Positions 11,050 through 57,394 of a DNA stretch of 64,000 bases are shown here, piece after piece. The position numbers and the translations under genes were made by a program. Location: the IMG/VR virus record IMGVR_UViG_3300045988_164636, positions 1 through 64,000 of that record; one strand, written 5' to 3'. Source of the stretch: a virus. Positions within the stretch are counted from its first letter, which is position 1. The number at the start of each line of letters is the position of its first letter. A model generated the notes under the pieces. That model was not told the origin of the DNA and ran no database searches. It saw only the letters and a list, made by a program, of their open reading frames with translations.

Positions 11050-11771
11050 ATATATTTTCCGCCAAAAATATTGATATATACATAATATTTAGTCATTATT
11101 TGGCGGAAAATATTATTTTTTACTTACTGTTGTTAGCTATGATAAAATGATAATATTGCGGAACGAGTATATATTCGCACCAAAGTATTGTACTTAAAAA
11201 AATTAGCAAATTTTACTTAATGCCCTCAATACCTTGCCGCATAAATCATTGATAAGCTCCGGGCAGAGCGCGAGAGTCACGCTCTGTTATTCTCTTTTCC
11301 CTAGCCCTATATGCAAAATTTTGATGAAAAAAGTTAAGTCGAAATTAATCTTCGTCTTTCCCAAAACTTTATTTTATTTTCTTGAAATTTAAGGCTACAA
11401 TCTTAAATTAATCTTATAAACGAATATGAGTTCGTATCAAGATTTTCATTTTAAAAAAAGTAAGCAAATTCTTCTTGCGGCAGTTCTTAGGATTCTATAC
11501 AGCCGCACTCCACATTTTTAAAGAACAGCCCGCCAAAAATTCATAGATTTTCATCTTCTTTTGTGAGCAACAGCACAGCAAATAAATGGTTTGTGATTAT
11601 GAGTTTGTTTCGTAGAAAATAATATATAATTTTTTCTACAAATGATTAATATTCCTTATTCTTGCGGGCGGATTGCAAAGGTGTAAGCCCATAACCTCAC
11701 CAAAATTTTCCATATATGCAAATTTTTTATAAATAAAGTTATATCTGGAAAAAATGGAAAAATTCCCGCAA

Positions 11772-11800
11772 TTGACTTTGTTTAAAATTTATGTTATAAT
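11772..11800 (+). promoter_or_regulatory. promoter TTGACT-17-TGtTATAAT
   Basis: -35 at 11772-11777, -10 at 11795-11800. Confidence 0.65.
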
Positions 11801-11827
11801 ATTTAAAAAAGGATTCTTTAAATTCAC

Positions 11828-11856
11828 TTGACTTTTACTAAAAATTATGTTATAAT
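11828..11856 (+). promoter_or_regulatory. promoter TTGACT-17-TGtTATAAT
   Basis: -35 at 11828-11833, -10 at 11851-11856; near-identical copy at 12945-12973. Confidence 0.7.
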
Positions 11857-11890
11857 AAAAATGAGAAAATAAAAGAAAGGAGTGAAATAA

Positions 11891-12295
11891 ATGGAAGTAG
11901 CTTGTAACCAAAAGATAGTCATAGTTGATAAATCTCCCGCCGATAAAAATCATAAATATTCTACTATTAATTTAGAAGCTTGGAAAAATGCTATGAGCAA
12001 ACTTAATAATACTACCTATAAATTATGGGATTATATTATGTTTAATCAGAATAAATATAAATTTGCATTATCCGCAGTTGACTTTTGCAATGTAAGTGGA
12101 GCCAGTCGTTCTACTTATAAAAGAGCGGTAAATGAATTAATTGAAAAAGGCTTTCTAGTATTAACTAACGAAGCTCGCAATGAATATACATTCTATGACT
12201 ATCCTAATCGAGATACAATGCCCGCAACAGAAGATGATATTAATATATCAATAGCAAATGATAATTGCATTAATGCGGAAGGCTTTGTATTTTAA
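11891..12295 (+). CDS. wHTH DNA-binding protein (replication-organizer-like N-terminal fold), paralog A
   Basis: YKLWDYI...FALS..DFC..SGASRSTYKRAVNELIEKGFL aligns with 12573-12869; RBS AAAGGAG. Confidence 0.6.
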   Translation: MEVACNQKIVIVDKSPADKNHKYSTINLEAWKNAMSKLNNTTYKLWDYIMFNQNKYKFALSAVDFCNVSGASRSTYKRAVNELIEKGFLVLTNEARNEYTFYDYPNRDTMPATEDDINISIANDNCINAEGFVF

Positions 12296-12500
12296 ATAGA
12301 TGGCTCATTGATGAGCCATTTTCAATAATTTGAATCACGAATGGGCTAGCTGGCTCATTGATGAGCAATTTTTATCTTAACATGGCTCACTGATGATCAG
12401 AGTTAGCCCATTCGTGATCAATTTTTATCTTATTTTTAATCACGGATGGGCTACAAATATTACAAATAATACATATATTACAATTGTAATATTACAGGGG
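12296..12500. repeat. iteron/operator field
   Basis: TGGCTCATTGATGAGCCA-type dyads at 12301, 12351, 12383; AATCACGRATGGGCTA at 12333, 12404(rev), 12437; CAATTTTTATCTTA twice; ATTACAATTGTAAT palindrome at 12476. Confidence 0.8.
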
Positions 12501-12520
12501 AAATATTACCCGCAGTTGCA

Positions 12521-12549
12521 TTGACTTTTATAAAAATTTATGTTATAAT
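12521..12549 (+). promoter_or_regulatory. promoter TTGACT-17-TGtTATAAT
   Basis: -35 at 12521-12526, -10 at 12544-12549. Confidence 0.7.
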
Positions 12550-12572: not shown

Positions 12573-12869
12573 ATGGAACAGAAGACAATTACTATTGACC
12601 GTACTTTAATTAAAGAAGAAATATCTATTGTATGTCTTTATGCTGCAATGAATAAACTTGATGATACAGTTTTTAAATTATGGACATATATTTTAATTCA
12701 AGAGGAAGCCCAATTTGCCCTATCTATAACCGACTTTTGTAAAATAAGCGGCGAATCTCAATCCACAGTTGAAAGAGCAGTTGTAGAATTAATAGAGAAG
12801 GGGTATCTCCGCTTAATTAATAAAGAAAAAAATACTTATATATTTGAACTTTATCCTTCAAATACATAA
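12573..12869 (+). CDS. wHTH DNA-binding protein, paralog B
   Basis: FKLWTYI...FALSITDFCKISGESQSTVERAVVELIEKGYL; RBS AAAGGAG. Confidence 0.6.
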   Translation: MEQKTITIDRTLIKEEISIVCLYAAMNKLDDTVFKLWTYILIQEEAQFALSITDFCKISGESQSTVERAVVELIEKGYLRLINKEKNTYIFELYPSNT

Positions 12870-12944: not shown

Positions 12945-12973
12945 TTGACTTTTATTAAAAATTATGTTATAAT
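12945..12973 (+). promoter_or_regulatory. plus-strand promoter firing antisense into minus-strand gene 12986-13723
   Basis: TTGACT 12945-12950, TATAAT 12968-12973; copy of promoter 11828 including the first transcribed bases AAAATGAGAA. Confidence 0.6.
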
Positions 12974-12985
12974 AAAAATGAGAAC

Positions 12986-13723
12986 TCAATTTTCATTCGC
13001 CCAATCTTTCTCATCTATTAATTGAGTTCTTTTCTTGGGATAATAGCCTAATTTATTAATTACTAAATCAACAAATAAATCATAAGAATCCGCAGTTTCT
13101 ATAGCACCAACAGCCGCATCTCTTTCTTCTTTTGTTAAAATACCATTTTTATAATCATCATCTATTGCGGCAATCAGAACATCTACGTTACCATAAGCAG
13201 TAGCCGCACATTCTTTTAATATTTTTAATTCTTCTTCATTAAGTGGGGCAGTTCCTCGTTCATTAGTCCAGATATATTCACTTCTACCTAAATCGCCACG
13301 GTCCGCCAGATGATTGTGTCCATAGTGTTTTACTTTTGAATTATTAGTATAAACTTTAGCAGTATTTAGAGATATTTGAGTATGAACTTCTTTTATATTT
13401 CTCCATATATCTTCTCCAACTCTTGCACAAGTATCTATTCTTTCTTTATATAATACTTCATTAATTTGTCCATTCTTATCTTTGATTTTGCCCCATCTCT
13501 TCGGCATTTCTTTATCAATAATTTCAAATGCTTTTGTATACTCAGGATAAAATACTCTATCAATGTATAATTTTTTACCCTCAAAATGATATTCTGCATA
13601 AGTTTTTAAAAGCTCAAATTTTTTAGCTCTTGTAGTAGATGAACTTCTGCTAATTGAATCTGGTTTTAATCCAAACCAAACCGATAATTCTCTTAAGGTT
13701 ATATAGCCTTCTTTTAATTCCAT
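12986..13723 (-). CDS. hypothetical protein with N-terminal HTH-like segment (paralog of 14274-14987)
   Basis: MELKEGYITLRELSVWFGLKPDSI vs MELQENKIYTSAELAEWFKITPKTF; RBS AAAGGAGA. Confidence 0.65.
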   Translation of the reverse strand: MELKEGYITLRELSVWFGLKPDSISRSSSTTRAKKFELLKTYAEYHFEGKKLYIDRVFYPEYTKAFEIIDKEMPKRWGKIKDKNGQINEVLYKERIDTCARVGEDIWRNIKEVHTQISLNTAKVYTNNSKVKHYGHNHLADRGDLGRSEYIWTNERGTAPLNEEELKILKECAATAYGNVDVLIAAIDDDYKNGILTKEERDAAVGAIETADSYDLFVDLVINKLGYYPKKRTQLIDEKDWANEN

Positions 13724-13770: not shown

Positions 13771-13846
13771 GTAAGATAAAGTATCTATAATTTTTAAGCT
13801 ATATATATATTTCTATAGCTTAAAAATTATAGATACTTTATCTTAC
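13771..13846. repeat. perfect 33-bp inverted repeat with 10-nt spacer
   Basis: Arms 13771-13803 and 13814-13846 are exact reverse complements (GTAAGATAAAGTATCTATAATTTTTAAGCTATA). Confidence 0.95.
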
Positions 13847-14094: not shown

Positions 14095-14250
14095 CCACTC
14101 AGAGTAAACATCTTAAAATATAATATGAAATATAATATAAAATATAATATATAATATAAAAATAATAACCTCATTCAAGACAAGTATCTTATAATATAAA
14201 ATATATAATATAAAATATAAATAACCCCACTCAGAATAAACATCTTAAAA
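14095..14250. repeat. three roughly 65-nt direct repeat units with TAATATAAAAT microsatellite
   Basis: CCACTCAGAGTAAACATCTTA at 14095, CCTCATTCAAGACAAGTATCTTA at 14169, CCCACTCAGAATAAACATCTTA at 14225, each followed by (ATAATATAAAAT)n. Confidence 0.75.
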
Positions 14251-14273: not shown

Positions 14274-14987
14274 TTAAAAATCTACTCTCCAATCTTCTTC
14301 TCTCTTCTCAACCTGAACACCAAAACCTACAAAACTTTCAATATTATGAGCAACTTCCGCACAATATTCATCCCACTTATCTTTTTCATAATTTTCAGTA
14401 TAATCAGCCCATTCTTCTTGAGTAATTTCTCCTGATTGATAAGCTTCTCTAAACGCTTGATATTCTTCCGTTTCTTCTCCAAAATTATATTTTTTTCTTA
14501 TATCTTTAATAATCTTCATTTCTAAATTATTAAAATGCAGCATTTCTCCGGAAGGGGTTATTTTACAAAAAATAAAACGACAAGATCCATCTTTTCCACT
14601 TTCTTGCGGATGTTTTTTACTACTTATTTTACCATATCTTCTTTTTCTTTCTTGATTAACATAGTTTTTTAAAGTAGATAATTTAATGTCAAATTTTTCT
14701 TGTCTAAACATTTTTTCTGCAACTTTTGTACCTCTGTCAATATTCTCGCCTTGATACCCCCACATTTCATCAAATAATTGTTTTACTCTCGCAGAAGCTT
14801 TTCCTTTATATTCAAAAATATAAACATCTTTAATCAAGATACCTTTTCTTCCTAAATCTTCGAAAGAACAATAATCCTTTAATATTTCTAATCTTTTAAT
14901 TCTTGTATTAGAAAATGTTTTAGGGGTAATTTTAAACCATTCTGCTAATTCCGCAGATGTATAAATTTTATTTTCTTGTAATTCCAT
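14274..14987 (-). CDS. hypothetical protein with N-terminal HTH-like segment (paralog of 12986-13723)
   Basis: 237-aa ORF, RBS GGAGGAAAAAA. Confidence 0.65.
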   Translation of the reverse strand: MELQENKIYTSAELAEWFKITPKTFSNTRIKRLEILKDYCSFEDLGRKGILIKDVYIFEYKGKASARVKQLFDEMWGYQGENIDRGTKVAEKMFRQEKFDIKLSTLKNYVNQERKRRYGKISSKKHPQESGKDGSCRFIFCKITPSGEMLHFNNLEMKIIKDIRKKYNFGEETEEYQAFREAYQSGEITQEEWADYTENYEKDKWDEYCAEVAHNIESFVGFGVQVEKREEDWRVDF

Positions 14988-15023: not shown

Positions 15024-15075
15024 ATTCCCGATTTTGTTTCGCTATAATAATATATAGCGAAACAAAATCGGGAAT
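15024..15075. repeat. perfect 23-bp inverted repeat with 6-nt spacer
   Basis: ATTCCCGATTTTGTTTCGCTATA 15024-15046 and its exact reverse complement at 15053-15075, in the leader/promoter region of 14274-14987. Confidence 0.95.
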
Positions 15076-20934: not shown

Positions 20935-21169
20935 TACTTTTGAAGGTAGTTTTATAAATGATAAAGAAATACGAATATGCGGAGAAGAAGATGGGTATCC
21001 TATACAGATTAAGGTAGCATTAACTGCGGCAAAGGAAAATATTGACAATCCAAATGAGATAGGATATGAGCCGCCACAAGCCGCAGACTCCGCAGATACA
21101 GTAGAGGTAAGTATTACATCAGAAGAAAAGAAGACAGTAGCTCAGCTATTGGCAGGTTTAGGCTTATGA
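20882..21169 (+). CDS. hypothetical protein
   Basis: 95-aa ORF with strong RBS AAGGAGGA; overlaps the end of 20119-20934 in another frame. Confidence 0.55.
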   Translation: MAARGQKIKTQIMQKILDTFEGSFINDKEIRICGEEDGYPIQIKVALTAAKENIDNPNEIGYEPPQAADSADTVEVSITSEEKKTVAQLLAGLGL

Positions 21170-21852
21170 TGATTTCAAAGAATAAAATGGCTATTTTAAT
21201 AGCCACTTTTTCTTTTATCATTTTAATGTTTTCTTCTAAAAAAGAATATGTACCTTCTACTTTTGTATTAAATGCTCCAGAACCAGTTATTATGACAATA
21301 GACTTTAATTATCCGTGGCGGCAATATACTCCTTCAATTATTGAAGAAAAACCAGATATAATAAATATGGCTGTATATTTTGATCCTTTTGATATAACAC
21401 AACCTTCTAATCTCACATATGAACAATTGCATAAATATCTTGCCGCATATTGCAAGAACTGGGTTGGATTAGAAGATTATTTATTGTCAAAAGATAAAGA
21501 GATTAATCTTATATTTTTATTAAGTGTGGCTAAAACTGAAACAGGTGCAGGTATTATTACTCATGGTTGGTATAATTGTTTCAATATCCGCCAAGAAAAT
21601 AGCTATGCTTTTGTTAATTACAATAGTTATGAAGAAAGTATTGATGATTTTATTCATCTTATATTGAATGGATATGTTGCGGAAGATGGAATATGGTACG
21701 AAGAACCTTGGATAGATTATAATGGAGTAGAACATACAAGTAAGTCTGTTCATACTATTGGTTTGCATTATGCGAGTGAAATATGGGCGCCTTATATTGA
21801 AAATATCTGTTGGGAAATAAAATCATTTAGTGAAAAGATTGAGGAGTCTTAA
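21166..21852 (+). CDS. membrane-anchored glucosaminidase-domain protein (FlgJ/LytD-like)
   Basis: N-terminal TM; AKTETGAG...NCFNIR...NYNSYEESIDDFIHLI resembles the glucosaminidase motif pattern. Confidence 0.5.
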   Translation: MMISKNKMAILIATFSFIILMFSSKKEYVPSTFVLNAPEPVIMTIDFNYPWRQYTPSIIEEKPDIINMAVYFDPFDITQPSNLTYEQLHKYLAAYCKNWVGLEDYLLSKDKEINLIFLLSVAKTETGAGIITHGWYNCFNIRQENSYAFVNYNSYEESIDDFIHLILNGYVAEDGIWYEEPWIDYNGVEHTSKSVHTIGLHYASEIWAPYIENICWEIKSFSEKIEES

Positions 21853-56342: not shown

Positions 56343-57394
56343 AAGAGAATGAAATTGGCTGTGTAATACCTTTCAAGTTTACCACTTGGGTAACTTTATA
56401 TAAACCATCTTAGTCATTTTTGAATGAGATATAGATGGAATTAATATAAAGTTGCTAACGGGGAAACCTGACCAGATAGTGCTGAAGGTAATCCCGTGGC
56501 AAACATTATTTAATTCCTTATTATTATTAAAAGGAGAAAACATATAATGATAGGAATTTATAAAATCACTAACAAAAATACAGGTAAAGTTTATATCGGG
56601 CAATCTGATAATATTGAAAGAAGATTAAACGAACACAAACAAAAAAGAACTCAAACAATAGATAATTATATCAATGTTTTGGGTGTAGAAAATTTTGATT
56701 TTGAAATTTTGGAAGAATGTAAGAAAGAAGATTTAGATTTAAAAGAAAAGGAATATATTAAAAAATATAATTCTCAAATTAAAGGATATAATATTCAACA
56801 AGGTGGGTATAATAATTCTCAAGGTGAAGGTAATGGAAGAGCTCTTTTAACGGAGGCAGATGTTATCTTTATCAGAACAGCTTATCAAAATCATGAATCG
56901 CCAAAAGAAATTTTTGAAAAATATTTTTCAGACAAAATAACAAAAAATAATTTTCAAAGTGTTTGGCAAGGAAGAACTTGGATAAATATTATGCCAGAAG
57001 TTTATACTGAAGAAAATAAGAAATATTATATTTCTGGACAACAAAAAGCAAAATCTTCTCTTTCAAAAGAAGAAGTTCTCTTATATAGACAATATTATGT
57101 TGATCATACAAGAGAAGAAGTTTATCAAAAGATGTTATCTGATAAAGGCGATATTTTAAAAAAAGCTACTTTTTTTAAAATATTAATAGGTGATGTCAGA
57201 GATAATAGTATTTATAAAGAAATTCCAATTTATAAAAAATCAAAAAAGTGTTGGGAATTAAATAATGAGGCTGTATCGACTATCCCCGAATCGGGGGAGT
57301 AGAGCTATTATTGGTACATAGTTCGAAATGGTATCCTTAGTTTTATAGACTAAGTAAGAGATAGTCAGGGCTTATAGAAATATAAGAATAACCG
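56343..57394 (+). mobile_element. group I intron carrying a GIY-YIG homing endonuclease
   Basis: Follows exon T 56342 and ends in G 57394; P4-like ACGGGGAAACC / AATCCCGTGG; AAGAGATAGTCAGGG S-like element; joining the exons restores ITSDA-DSDG-LDIELLLVTFFFTYMRPL. Confidence 0.8.
56547..57302 (+). CDS. GIY-YIG homing endonuclease (intron-encoded)
   Basis: GIYKITNKNTGKVYIGQSDNIERRLNEH. Confidence 0.85.
   Translation: MIGIYKITNKNTGKVYIGQSDNIERRLNEHKQKRTQTIDNYINVLGVENFDFEILEECKKEDLDLKEKEYIKKYNSQIKGYNIQQGGYNNSQGEGNGRALLTEADVIFIRTAYQNHESPKEIFEKYFSDKITKNNFQSVWQGRTWINIMPEVYTEENKKYYISGQQKAKSSLSKEEVLLYRQYYVDHTREEVYQKMLSDKGDILKKATFFKILIGDVRDNSIYKEIPIYKKSKKCWELNNEAVSTIPESGE

What the first reader, a model, noticed from the sequence alone, without database searches (positions are those of the whole stretch)
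12296..12500. Iteron field between two paralogous wHTH genes: candidate replication origin or autoregulated operator
Within 200 bp there are three copies of the dyad TGGCTCAT-TG-ATGAGCCA (12301, 12351, 12383; progressively degenerate). There are three copies of AATCACG(A/G)ATGGGCTA, one of them inverted (12333, 12404, 12437). CAATTTTTATCTTA occurs twice, and there is an ATTACAATTGTAAT palindrome. The flanking genes (11891-12295, 12573-12869) encode paralogous winged-helix proteins of the type seen in replication initiator/organizer N-termini. This is classical iteron-plus-initiator architecture, duplicated.
Basis: partly seen in the sequence, partly recalled or inferred. Interest (0 to 1): 0.65.

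Follow-up and report, generated by a model that had tools for sequence, protein, structure and literature searches.

The report
Phage binding-site array, probable replication origin
The repeat field is real: six phased 18-bp sites plus an easily melted AT-rich stretch, paired with the small DNA-binding gene just upstream of it, forming a swappable unit in large gut-bacterial phages that most likely acts as a replication origin.

Summary
The repeats exist as described and are far beyond chance. Refined, they are six related 18-bp sites (U1-U6, 12301-12453). Their centres are spaced 30/20/32/21/32 bp, so they lie on roughly one face of the helix. A conserved AT-rich element (12454-12497) and the next early promoter follow.

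Comparison with metagenomic relatives shows the field belongs to the upstream gene P1 (11891-12295), a winged-helix protein with a disordered tail ending in GFVF. It does not belong to the pair of paralogs. The array occurs without P2, and P2-type genes occur without it.

A 93%-identical P1 allele has the same flanks and nearly the same site spacing. Its 18-mer is different (TGGGCAAAATTTTGCCCA), and its amino-acid changes cluster in the recognition helix.

More distant alleles each carry their own dyad array right after the stop codon, then an AT-rich tract and a GC hairpin. Site sequence follows the recognition helix rather than overall similarity. One relative sits directly behind a DnaB-like helicase gene.

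Best reading: a cognate protein/site cassette (confidence about 0.8) working as an iteron-type origin (about 0.5). "Operator for P2" and "duplicated" are not supported. This is a new variant of a known kind in a large unnamed protein family.

The parts
11772..11856 (+). Two tandem consensus sigma-A-type early promoters (TTGACT-17-TATAAT with TG), at 11772-11800 and 11828-11856, that drive P1
   Evidence: The promoter cassette is repeated six times in the window (0 expected).
11891..12295 (+). P1: a 134-aa winged-helix protein. Recognition helix is about residues 73-85, the wing 89-101, and a disordered net-acidic tail spans 111-134 and ends in GFVF-COOH. It is the proposed cognate binder of the array.
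   Evidence: (AF2 pLDDT 72)
12301..12318 (+). Site U1, the perfect dyad TGGCTCATTGATGAGCCA, 5 nt after the P1 stop codon. It also forms a -12.9 kcal/mol RNA hairpin followed by UUUU, so it may act as a partial terminator.
12331..12348 (-). Site U2 (reverse complement TAGCCCATTCGTGATTCA), an asymmetric variant
12351..12368 (+). Site U3, TGGCTCATTGATGAGCAA
12383..12400 (+). Site U4, TGGCTCACTGATGATCAG. Its right half is degenerate here and closer to the consensus in L015.
12404..12421 (+). Site U5, TAGCCCATTCGTGATCAA
12436..12453 (-). Site U6 (reverse complement TAGCCCATCCGTGATTAA). Together with U5 it forms a 50-bp inverted repeat.
12454..12497 (.). Conserved AT-rich element: TACAAATAT-like 9-mers repeated three times, and the 18-bp palindrome at 12475-12492. 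It is the proposed DNA-unwinding element. The sequence is retained (AGAAATATTACA.ATAATACAT) downstream of unrelated dyad arrays in relatives.
   Evidence: (top 0.8% least stable 40-mers)
12498..12549 (+). GGGGAAATATTACCCGCAGTTGCA followed by a consensus early promoter (-35 at 12521, -10 at 12544). This is the downstream boundary of the cassette.
12573..12869 (+). P2: a 98-aa tail-less paralog of P1 with a different recognition helix (SQSTVERAVVEL). It is a neighbour, not part of the module; a possible regulator or competitor.

Best explanation
The field is the cis-acting half of a two-part cassette. The other half is the gene immediately upstream, P1. Shown from sequence and comparison: six related 18-bp sites are spaced at about 2 and 3 helical turns, followed by a conserved, easily melted AT-rich element. 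The cassette travels with the P1-type gene, and site sequence co-varies with the P1 recognition helix. Inferred: P1 dimers bind the six sites through the winged-helix domain and build a phased nucleoprotein complex next to the AT-rich element. Their disordered acidic tails end in Phi-x-F-COOH (GFVF here; DLPF/EIPF, like the SSB C-terminal tip, in some relatives). Clustered there, the tails recruit a replisome or primosome component (helicase, primase or PriA-type), so that replication starts at the AT-rich element. Transcription from the strong early promoters, reading through the array, may help. On this reading it is an iteron-type phage origin served by a minimal origin-binding protein, and the whole unit is exchanged between related phages as a specificity cassette. 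P2 is a tail-less paralog placed next to it by mosaic recombination.
For: (1) The repeats are non-random and unique in the 64 kb. Site centres are 30, 20, 32, 21 and 32 bp apart. (2) Linkage: the same array directly follows a chimeric 128-aa gene with the P1 C-terminus in L015, with no P2 behind it. P2-type genes in L005, L011, L017 and L034 lack the array. (3) Cassette swap: in L035 and L036 (protein 93% identical, gene 91% nt) the array is only 51% identical to the window's. The flanking AT-rich element and promoter are 94% identical. There are again six 18-mers (TGGGCAAAATTTTGCCCA type), at offsets 0/31/51/83/105/127 against 0/30/50/82/103/135 in the window. 18 of the 37 nt differences in the gene fall in codons 64-89, giving S72C, R78N and N81R in the predicted recognition helix. 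(4) Alleles at 46-48% identity (L016, L032, L033), and more distant family members (L048, L053, L057, L068-70, L074, L075, L077/78), each have their own dyad array. It starts 0-40 nt after the stop codon with a 22-23 bp period and is followed by an AT-rich tract and a GC hairpin; in L077/78 the order is reversed, hairpin and AT tract first. At least 3 copies of a 10-mer occur in 14/38 downstream windows against 10/207 controls; at least 4 copies in 9/38 against 1/207. (5) Site sequence tracks the helix. L033 and L053 are 51% identical, share the helix SKP(S/T)YL, and share the half-site TGGTAAA..TTTACCA. L033 and L032 are 66% identical but have different helices and different dyads. (6) Replication context: in L048 the family gene starts 12 nt after a DnaB-like helicase gene (phrog_19, 3e-34) and is followed by 4 dyads, an AT tract and a terminator. 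For 12 members the PHROG hits (E 1e-7 to 9e-3) are to replication-initiator or DnaD-like N-termini, apart from a few unannotated families. (7) 93 of 266 family proteins end in Phi-x-F, about 10 expected, after a net-acidic linker. (8) The 40-mer at 12455 is among the 0.8% least stable in the window.
Against: There is no direct evidence that replication starts here. P1 has no helicase, loader or known initiator C-terminal domain, and its partner is unknown. The module is dispensable in near-identical phages: L005 and L017 lack it and carry a different repeat field, 4x AAAAAAGCACCTAACTAA. So it is at most one of several alternative or redundant origins, or an accessory function. About 60% of family members examined have no downstream array. 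Similarity to initiator families is weak: it is below Pfam thresholds for RepA_N and Phage_rep_O, and Foldseek finds only a generic winged helix (E>0.28). U1 also looks like an intrinsic terminator. Co-variation of helix and site would equally fit a repressor/operator pair.
Confidence: 0.5

Rival explanations
1. Regulatory array. P1 (and perhaps P2) binds the sites to control early transcription, for example as a roadblock or terminator enhancer downstream of its own gene, or as a distal operator or enhancer for the 12521 promoter. The allele-specific swaps would then resemble heteroimmune repressor/operator regions.
For: The locus lies in a cluster of four near-identical strong early promoters. 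Three to six dyads at a period of about 23 bp resemble lambda-type operators (established knowledge). Helix and site co-vary. U1 is terminator-like. The array lies between the stop codon and the terminator in relatives, so it is transcribed.
Against: No site overlaps a -35 or -10; U6 ends 67 bp upstream of the -35. In L032 the array sits between convergent genes with no downstream promoter. The conserved AT-rich element and the C-terminal Phi-x-F tip have no obvious role. In L048 the context is a helicase operon.
Confidence: 0.22
2. Centromere-like or genome-organising site. A small winged-helix adaptor (in the style of TubR or ParR) coats a repeat array and links phage DNA to a motor or scaffold through its C-terminal tip.
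For: The closest DNA-binding protein in the PDB by profile is TubR, although not significantly (E 0.49; Foldseek rank 45). A small protein, a repeat array and a C-terminal peptide motif are typical of adaptor/centromere pairs.
Against: No TubZ, ParM or ParA-like NTPase was found among the window ORFs of at least 250 aa, or next to the gene in relatives. The gene content looks lytic. The conserved adjacent AT-rich tract is not explained.
Confidence: 0.07
3. Competition or incompatibility element. The array and its binder serve mainly in conflicts between co-infecting related phages, by titrating or hijacking a rival's replication or regulatory protein, which would explain the presence/absence polymorphism and the specificity swaps.
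For: Closely related genomes differ in which cassette they carry: none, one or two. The specificity switch sits within otherwise 91-94% identical DNA.
Against: This is purely inferential. It is also not exclusive of an origin function, since origin titration is a known mechanism of that kind.
Confidence: 0.1
4. RNA or ssDNA structure only. The dyads would be tandem intrinsic terminators or 3'-UTR hairpins of the P1 transcript with no protein-site role.
For: The region folds at z = -6.5 on either strand. U1 forms a -12.9 kcal/mol hairpin followed by UUUU. The U3 core was flagged as terminator-like.
Against: U3 and U4 fold no better than shuffles (-5.9 and -3.6 kcal/mol). U2, U5 and U6 are not self-complementary. 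Dyads in relatives lack U-runs, and a separate GC hairpin terminator follows the AT tract. Copies within an array keep the same sequence, including asymmetric centres. No Rfam family matches. Hairpins alone would not explain co-variation with the recognition helix.
Confidence: 0.05

Closest known systems
SaPI (staphylococcal pathogenicity island) replication origins
   Same: Iterons lie immediately downstream of the initiator ORF with an associated AT-rich region. Recognition is by a winged-helix domain, and specificity differs between elements (PMC9371898).
   Different: The SaPI Rep is a self-loading helicase of about 500-600 aa, and its iterons are 5-6 bp and flank the AT tract. Here the binder is a 100-134-aa winged-helix protein with no ATPase, and the sites are 18-19-bp dyads mostly on one side of the AT tract.
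RepA_N initiators (pSK41, pTZ2162, PLE RepA) and their iterons
   Same: They have a DnaD-NTD-like winged-helix DNA-binding domain. [quoted passage not shown] This matches the L016, L033 and L053 arrays (for example GGTGGTTTAAAAAGTAAACCACC).
   Different: There is no Pfam RepA_N match and no host-specific C-terminal domain. The origin lies downstream of the gene, not within it. The window's own dyads have a TTGA centre rather than poly-A.
Phage lambda O protein and ori-lambda
   Same: Four dyad-symmetric iterons of about 19 bp are bound by dimers of an N-terminal winged-helix domain, next to an AT-rich region. Iterons and the O N-terminus co-vary among lambdoid phages, and transcription activates the origin (established knowledge; PMC3017604). 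There is a weak PHROG 'O-like' hit.
   Different: Ori-lambda lies inside the O gene, and O has a C-terminal domain that binds the P-DnaB complex. P1 has only a short tail.
SSB C-terminal tip (..DDDIPF / ..DDDLPF) and acidic C-terminal Phe tails of phage replisome proteins (T7 gp2.5, gp4)
   Same: A disordered net-acidic linker ends in Phi-x-F-COOH. Some family members end in ..DDLPF..DDDEIPF or ..EEDMPF.
   Different: The tip is attached to a sequence-specific dsDNA binder, not an OB-fold ssDNA binder. P1's own tip is GFVF. No partner is identified. The comparison rests on my own knowledge and was not tested.
Lambda-type repressor/operator immunity regions
   Same: There are several phased dyad sites, and protein helix and site sequence co-vary within otherwise near-identical flanks.
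   Different: The sites do not overlap promoters. The array lies downstream of the gene. The associated AT-rich element is conserved.

Membership tests
Iteron-type replication origin | At least 3 phased repeats of an initiator-binding site | tested here: met
   There are six 18-mers with centre spacing 30/20/32/21/32 bp. Homologous arrays occur in about 13 distinct alleles.
Iteron-type replication origin | Adjacent AT-rich DNA-unwinding element | tested here: met
   12454-12497 is in the top 0.8% least stable 40-mers. An AT-rich tract follows the array in relatives (precedes it in L077/78), with a partly conserved sequence.
Iteron-type replication origin | Cognate initiator encoded next to the repeats and specific for them | tested here: inconclusive
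   Linkage and helix/site co-variation support cognate binding. Binding itself was not measured.
Iteron-type replication origin | Replication initiates there, or the fragment confers replication | not testable with these tools
GC skew follows transcription direction only.
Iteron-type replication origin | Initiator recruits or is a helicase or primosome | tested here: inconclusive
   No such domain is present. A Phi-x-F C-terminal tip is enriched in the family. The gene is adjacent to DnaB in L048.
RepA_N (PF06970) | Match to the RepA_N profile, or an NTD fold like RepA or the DnaD NTD | tested here: not met
   There is no Pfam hit at E<=0.1 and no RepA chain in the PDB profile search at E<=10. 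The DnaD NTD 2v79 is only rank 41, E 0.83. The PHROG DnaD-like hits are weak.
RepA_N (PF06970) | Semi-palindromic direct-repeat iterons converging on poly-A (PMC7145576) | tested here: inconclusive
   This is met in relatives L016, L033 and L053, but not by the window's TTGA-centred dyads.
Lambda O-type initiator (Phage_rep_O) | Profile match, origin inside the gene, and a C-terminal P-binding domain | tested here: not met
   There is no Pfam hit, and phrog_678 hits only at 2e-4 to 9e-4. The array is downstream of the gene. The tail is about 30 aa and disordered.
Repressor/operator | Operators overlap the regulated promoter | tested here: not met
   The nearest promoter's -35 is at 12521, 67 bp beyond U6. 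The L032 array lies between convergent genes.
TubR/tubC or ParR/parC centromere | Adjacent motor NTPase (TubZ, ParM or ParA) | tested here: not met
   None was found among the window ORFs of at least 250 aa by PHROG or Pfam, nor in the neighbours of relatives. The remaining 63 kb of the genome was not seen.
Intrinsic terminator | GC-rich hairpin followed by a U-run | tested here: inconclusive
   U1 forms a -12.9 kcal/mol hairpin followed by UUUU, and the U3 core was flagged. U3 (-5.9) and U4 (-3.6 kcal/mol) fold no better than shuffles, U2, U5 and U6 are not self-complementary, and most dyads in relatives do not qualify.

The most novel reading that the evidence does not exclude
A large, unnamed family (more than 2000 clusters at 50% identity) of minimal origin-tagging proteins in phages and mobile elements of gut Clostridia. 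Each is a sequence-specific winged helix that displays an SSB-tip-like Phi-x-F-COOH peptide. Bound as a phased array beside an AT-rich element, it would nucleate replisome or primosome loading on duplex DNA without any dedicated initiator ATPase or loader. Protein helix and site array would be swapped together as a cassette, setting replication specificity, and hence compatibility or competition, among co-circulating phages.
Probability: 0.25. Interest if true: 0.75.

Novelty: new variant of a known kind. Interest (0 to 1): 0.55.

Why it matters
Replication origins of large virulent phages of gut Firmicutes are essentially unmapped. This cassette gives a concrete, testable candidate: a defined protein, six defined sites, and a natural specificity-swap pair (window against L035) that serves as a built-in control. 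If the Phi-x-F tail proves to recruit replication proteins, it would show a very economical way of building an origin. It would also annotate thousands of currently nameless 'HTH domain' phage genes. The cassette swaps also illustrate how specificity modules move between near-identical phage genomes.

Tried and rejected
- **DNA search of GenBank phages and PLSDB plasmids with 8 kb around the locus:** no real match. tblastn of P1 against GenBank phages found nothing.
- **IMG/VR exact-pattern scans for the B-motif and the palindrome:** only single chance hits, or none.
- **Rfam scan of 10.5-15.5 kb:** only sub-threshold eukaryotic miRNA-like hits to palindromes, and nothing in the field.
- **PDB profile search and Foldseek against PDB and BFVD:** generic winged helix only, with no significant specific relative. 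The TubR lead (E 0.49) was not supported by context.
- **NCBIfam:** no family.
- **Pfam on long family members:** no C-terminal domain found.
- **GC skew:** follows gene orientation and says nothing about an origin.
- **Sequencing-run and read-mapping tool:** not available for this window, so there was no coverage or transcript-end test.
- **Small terminase/pac site:** considered and set aside. No terminase is nearby in the window, and only L057 has one adjacent.
- **CRISPR-like array:** considered and set aside because of the wrong repeat/spacer geometry.
- **Literature search for winged-helix initiators carrying SSB-tip mimics:** no precedent found.

Full report
**Setting.** The window is low-GC (about 30%). 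It encodes both type II topoisomerase subunits, an NAD-dependent DNA ligase, an RNA ligase, PhoH, tail-fibre proteins and an endolysin, and the contig is 127 kb. This is a large, lytic-looking phage. Its promoters are of the Firmicute sigma-A type, and its relatives come from human, pig and ruminant gut metagenomes and from Clostridia MAGs. No GenBank phage or PLSDB plasmid matches at DNA level, and P1 has no tblastn hit in GenBank phages.

**Observation.**
- The 18-bp dyad TGGCTCATTGATGAGCCA occurs only here in the 64 kb, even when 3 mismatches are allowed (expected 0.01).
- The second motif has 3 copies with up to 1 mismatch against 0.01 expected. Its third copy starts at 12438, not 12437.
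- The two motifs are variants of one 18-mer. This gives six sites: U1 12301-12318, U2 12331-12348 (inverted), U3 12351-12368, U4 12383-12400, U5 12404-12421 and U6 12436-12453 (inverted).
- Site centres are 30, 20, 32, 21 and 32 bp apart, close to 3, 2, 3, 2 and 3 helical turns.
- A 44-bp AT-rich element follows at 12454-12497. It holds 9-bp TACAAATAT-like repeats and an 18-bp perfect palindrome, it contains 3 of the window's 5 AATATTACA copies, and it ranks in the top 0.8% least stable 40-mers.
- Next comes a consensus early promoter at 12521-12549. It is one of six near-identical promoter cassettes in the window.

**Genes.**
- P1 (11891-12295, 134 aa) and P2 (12573-12869, 98 aa) are 44% identical (E 4e-28).
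- An AlphaFold model of P1 (pLDDT 72) is a winged helix. The recognition helix is at about residues 73-85, the wing at 89-101, and residues 111-134 are disordered.
- Pfam gives only HTH_36, at or below threshold.
- For twelve divergent family members, the PHROG hits (E 1e-7 to 9e-3) are to N-terminal parts of 'replication initiation', 'O-like' or 'DnaD-like' families, apart from a few unannotated families.
- Structure searches return only generic winged helices.
- The family is large (2155 representative clusters at E<=1e-3) and has no informative annotation (the only source names are 'hypothetical protein' and one 'archaellin').

**Which gene owns the array.** Relatives recovered through the protein searches settle this.
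- L004 (a close relative) has the same P1-array-P2 layout.
- L015 has a chimeric 128-aa gene with a different N-terminus and the P1 C-terminal half. The same array and AT-rich element follow it directly, but other genes, not P2, come after.
- L005, L011, L017 and L034 carry P2-type (tail-less) genes with no such array. Upstream of them is a different field: four AAAAAAGCACCTAACTAA repeats, an AT-rich tract and GC hairpins. That field follows a 249-aa ScpB-like winged-helix gene, or a remnant of it.
- The array therefore belongs to the P1-type gene. Its position between two paralogs results from mosaic recombination.

**Cassette swap.**
- L035 and L036 encode a protein 93% identical to P1 (gene 91% nt). 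Downstream, the AT-rich element and promoter are 94% identical to the window's.
- Between these flanks the array is only 51% identical.
- It is again six 18-mers, now of the TGGGCAAAATTTTGCCCA type. They start at offsets 0/31/51/83/105/127, against 0/30/50/82/103/135 in the window.
- Half of the nucleotide differences within the gene (18 of 37) fall in codons 64-89. They produce S72C, R78N and N81R in the recognition helix.
- So two separate divergent patches, the helix and the array, lie within conserved DNA.
- The type-1 array goes with the helix ASRSTYKRAVNEL in three loci (window, L004, L015). The type-2 array goes with C72-containing helices in L035, L036 and L014.

**Distant alleles.**
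- L016, L032 and L033 (46-48% identical to P1) each have their own array starting 1-25 nt after the stop codon:
  - L016: 3x GGTGGTTTAAAAAGTAAACCACC.
  - L033: at least 5x TGGTAAA-N5-TTTACCA.
  - L032: 2x GTGTACCAATTTTGGGTATAG plus TGGTGCTAAAATTGCACCA.
- These arrays have a period of about 23 bp. An AAATATTACA.ATAATACAT-like AT-rich element follows in L016 and L032, then a GC hairpin; the L033 contig ends inside its array.
- TGG-N12/13-CCA dyads are otherwise rare: 2 in the 64 kb, one of them U1.
- Members at 30-45% identity show the same grammar with unrelated dyads (L048, L053, L057, L068-70, L074, L075, and L077/78 with the order reversed).
- Quantitatively, at least 3 copies of a 10-mer occur in 14/38 downstream windows against 10/207 control windows. 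At least 4 copies occur in 9/38 against 1/207.
- Site sequence follows the recognition helix, not overall relatedness. L033 and L053 are 51% identical, share the helix SKP(S/T)YL, and share the half-site. L033 and L032 are 66% identical but have different helices and different dyads.
- In L032 the array lies between convergent genes, which argues against a conserved role as operator of a downstream promoter.
- In L048 the family gene starts 12 nt after a DnaB-like helicase gene and is followed by four dyads, an AT-rich tract and a clean terminator.

**The tail.**
- P1-type proteins end in GFVF. Relatives end in EFQF, TFKF, NFVF or DFQF, and the 249-aa protein ends in GFKF.
- Across 266 family sequences, 99 end in F and 93 match [FILVMWY]-x-F-COOH, where about 10 would be expected. 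The preceding linker is net-acidic.
- Some end in ..DDLPF..DDDEIPF or ..EEDMPF. From established knowledge, this is the pattern of the SSB C-terminal tip that recruits PriA, primase, helicases and polymerases.
- This is a resemblance, not a tested interaction. P2-type proteins lack the tail.

**Hairpins or duplex sites.**
- The whole field folds strongly on either strand, as any set of inverted repeats would.
- U1 is a good hairpin (-12.9 kcal/mol) followed by UUUU, and it may act as a partial terminator.
- U3 and U4 fold no better than shuffles, and U2, U5 and U6 are not self-complementary.
- In relatives the dyads lack U-runs, and a separate terminator follows the AT tract.
- Rfam finds nothing.
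- The sites are therefore best read as duplex binding sites, with the first one possibly doubling as a terminator.

**Mechanism.**
- Shown: a phased array of six related sites beside a conserved, low-stability AT-rich element. It is physically and evolutionarily coupled to the upstream winged-helix gene, and recognition helix and site sequence co-vary.
- Inferred: P1 dimers occupy the sites and form a nucleoprotein complex next to the AT-rich element. The clustered Phi-x-F tails recruit a replication factor, and replication starts there, helped by early transcription through the array.
- I put about 0.8 on 'cognate binding array of P1' and about 0.5 on 'replication origin'.
- Main counter-points:
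  - There is no direct replication evidence.
  - The protein is minimal.
  - Near-identical phages lack this cassette and carry another repeat field, so it is one of alternative or redundant modules, or it is accessory.
  - Many family members have no downstream array.
- Rivals are a regulatory array or roadblock (0.22), a competition or incompatibility element (0.10, not exclusive of an origin), a centromere-like adaptor (0.07) and RNA hairpins only (0.05).

**Comparison with known systems.**
- In layout it is closest to SaPI origins, where iterons lie immediately downstream of rep with an AT-rich region (PMC9371898).
- It also resembles lambda ori/O: dyad iterons bound by a winged-helix N-terminal domain, an AT-rich region, and type-specific co-variation.
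- The dyads of several relatives match the published description of RepA_N iterons, semi-palindromic repeats converging on poly-A (PMC7145576).
- Membership in RepA_N or Phage_rep_O was tested and not met.
- It differs from all three in having only a roughly 100-aa DNA-binding domain and a short tail with a C-terminal aromatic tip.

Noticed in passing
window 11050-11890; L014, L015, L017, L034, L005, L011: The window has about 840 bp with no ORF upstream of P1. Relatives carry there a 249-aa ScpB-like winged-helix gene ending in GFKF. It is followed by its own section: 4x AAAAAAGCACCTAACTAA (period about 22 bp), an AT-rich tract with TAATAGT repeated three times, and two GC-rich hairpins. L005 and L011 keep only the 3' remnant of the gene, with the field intact. 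This looks like a second cassette of the same grammar.
   Followed up: partly
window 11772, 11828, 12521, 12945, 27218, 48770: A promoter cassette of about 45 bp, TTGACTTTTATAAAAATTTATGTTATAAT(W)AAAATGAGAA, is repeated six times (0 expected by chance). Copies flank the swapped modules and could be the recombination substrates, reminiscent of the promoter/stem-loop cassettes of T4-type phages (from memory).
   Followed up: partly
window 12945-12973 (+) against 12986-13723 (-): One of these strong promoters fires on the + strand straight into the 3' end of the minus-strand 245-aa gene. This suggests convergent or antisense transcription. The arrangement is conserved in L017 and L034.
   Followed up: no
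window 12986-13723 (-) and 14274-14987 (-); 13771-13846; 15024-15075: Two minus-strand genes are paralogs (28% identity, E 1e-13) with no family match. Each has a long palindrome upstream: 38-nt arms at 95% identity, and 23-nt perfect arms with a 6-nt loop. These palindromes gave the spurious Rfam miRNA hits.
   Followed up: partly
window 14118-14220: Pure-AT tandem repeats hold the least stable 40-mer of the whole window (at 14128), between the two minus-strand paralogs.
   Followed up: no
family-wide (P0029-P0266; L040-L043, L047): 35% of family proteins end in Phi-x-F-COOH after an acidic linker. The longer members (198-235 aa), found in MAG contigs with an integrase nearby, end in ..EDLPF, ..DDLPF or ..NELPF, like the SSB tip, and have no downstream array.
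   Followed up: partly
wHTH genes in window, L014, L015, L017, L034 (alignment A2): The wHTH genes are mosaics. There are three N-terminal types, at least three recognition-helix types and two C-terminal types (tailed and tail-less), and they recombine freely, with breakpoints in the conserved ELIEKG region.
   Followed up: partly
L057 2095-3628: In an 11.8-kb viral contig, a 286-aa family member and its repeat array (TAGTGGAACTT..ACTACCACTA) sit between the major head gene and the large terminase gene (a 137-aa ORF between array and terminase was not analysed). The context differs from the large phages.
   Followed up: no
window 56547-57302: A GIY-YIG (homing-endonuclease-like) ORF lies between the two type II topoisomerase subunit genes.
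   Followed up: no
window 21188-21205: A single perfect TGG..CCA dyad, TGGCTATTTTAATAGCCA, lies inside ORF 21166-21852. It is the only other dyad of this frame in the 64 kb and is probably chance.
   Followed up: no
L064-L067, L055, L053, L059 (IMG/VR contigs of 76-186 kb): Family genes often lie within 0.2-6 kb of the end of large viral contigs. This may reflect assembly breaks in this hypervariable region, or a position near a genome terminus.
   Followed up: no
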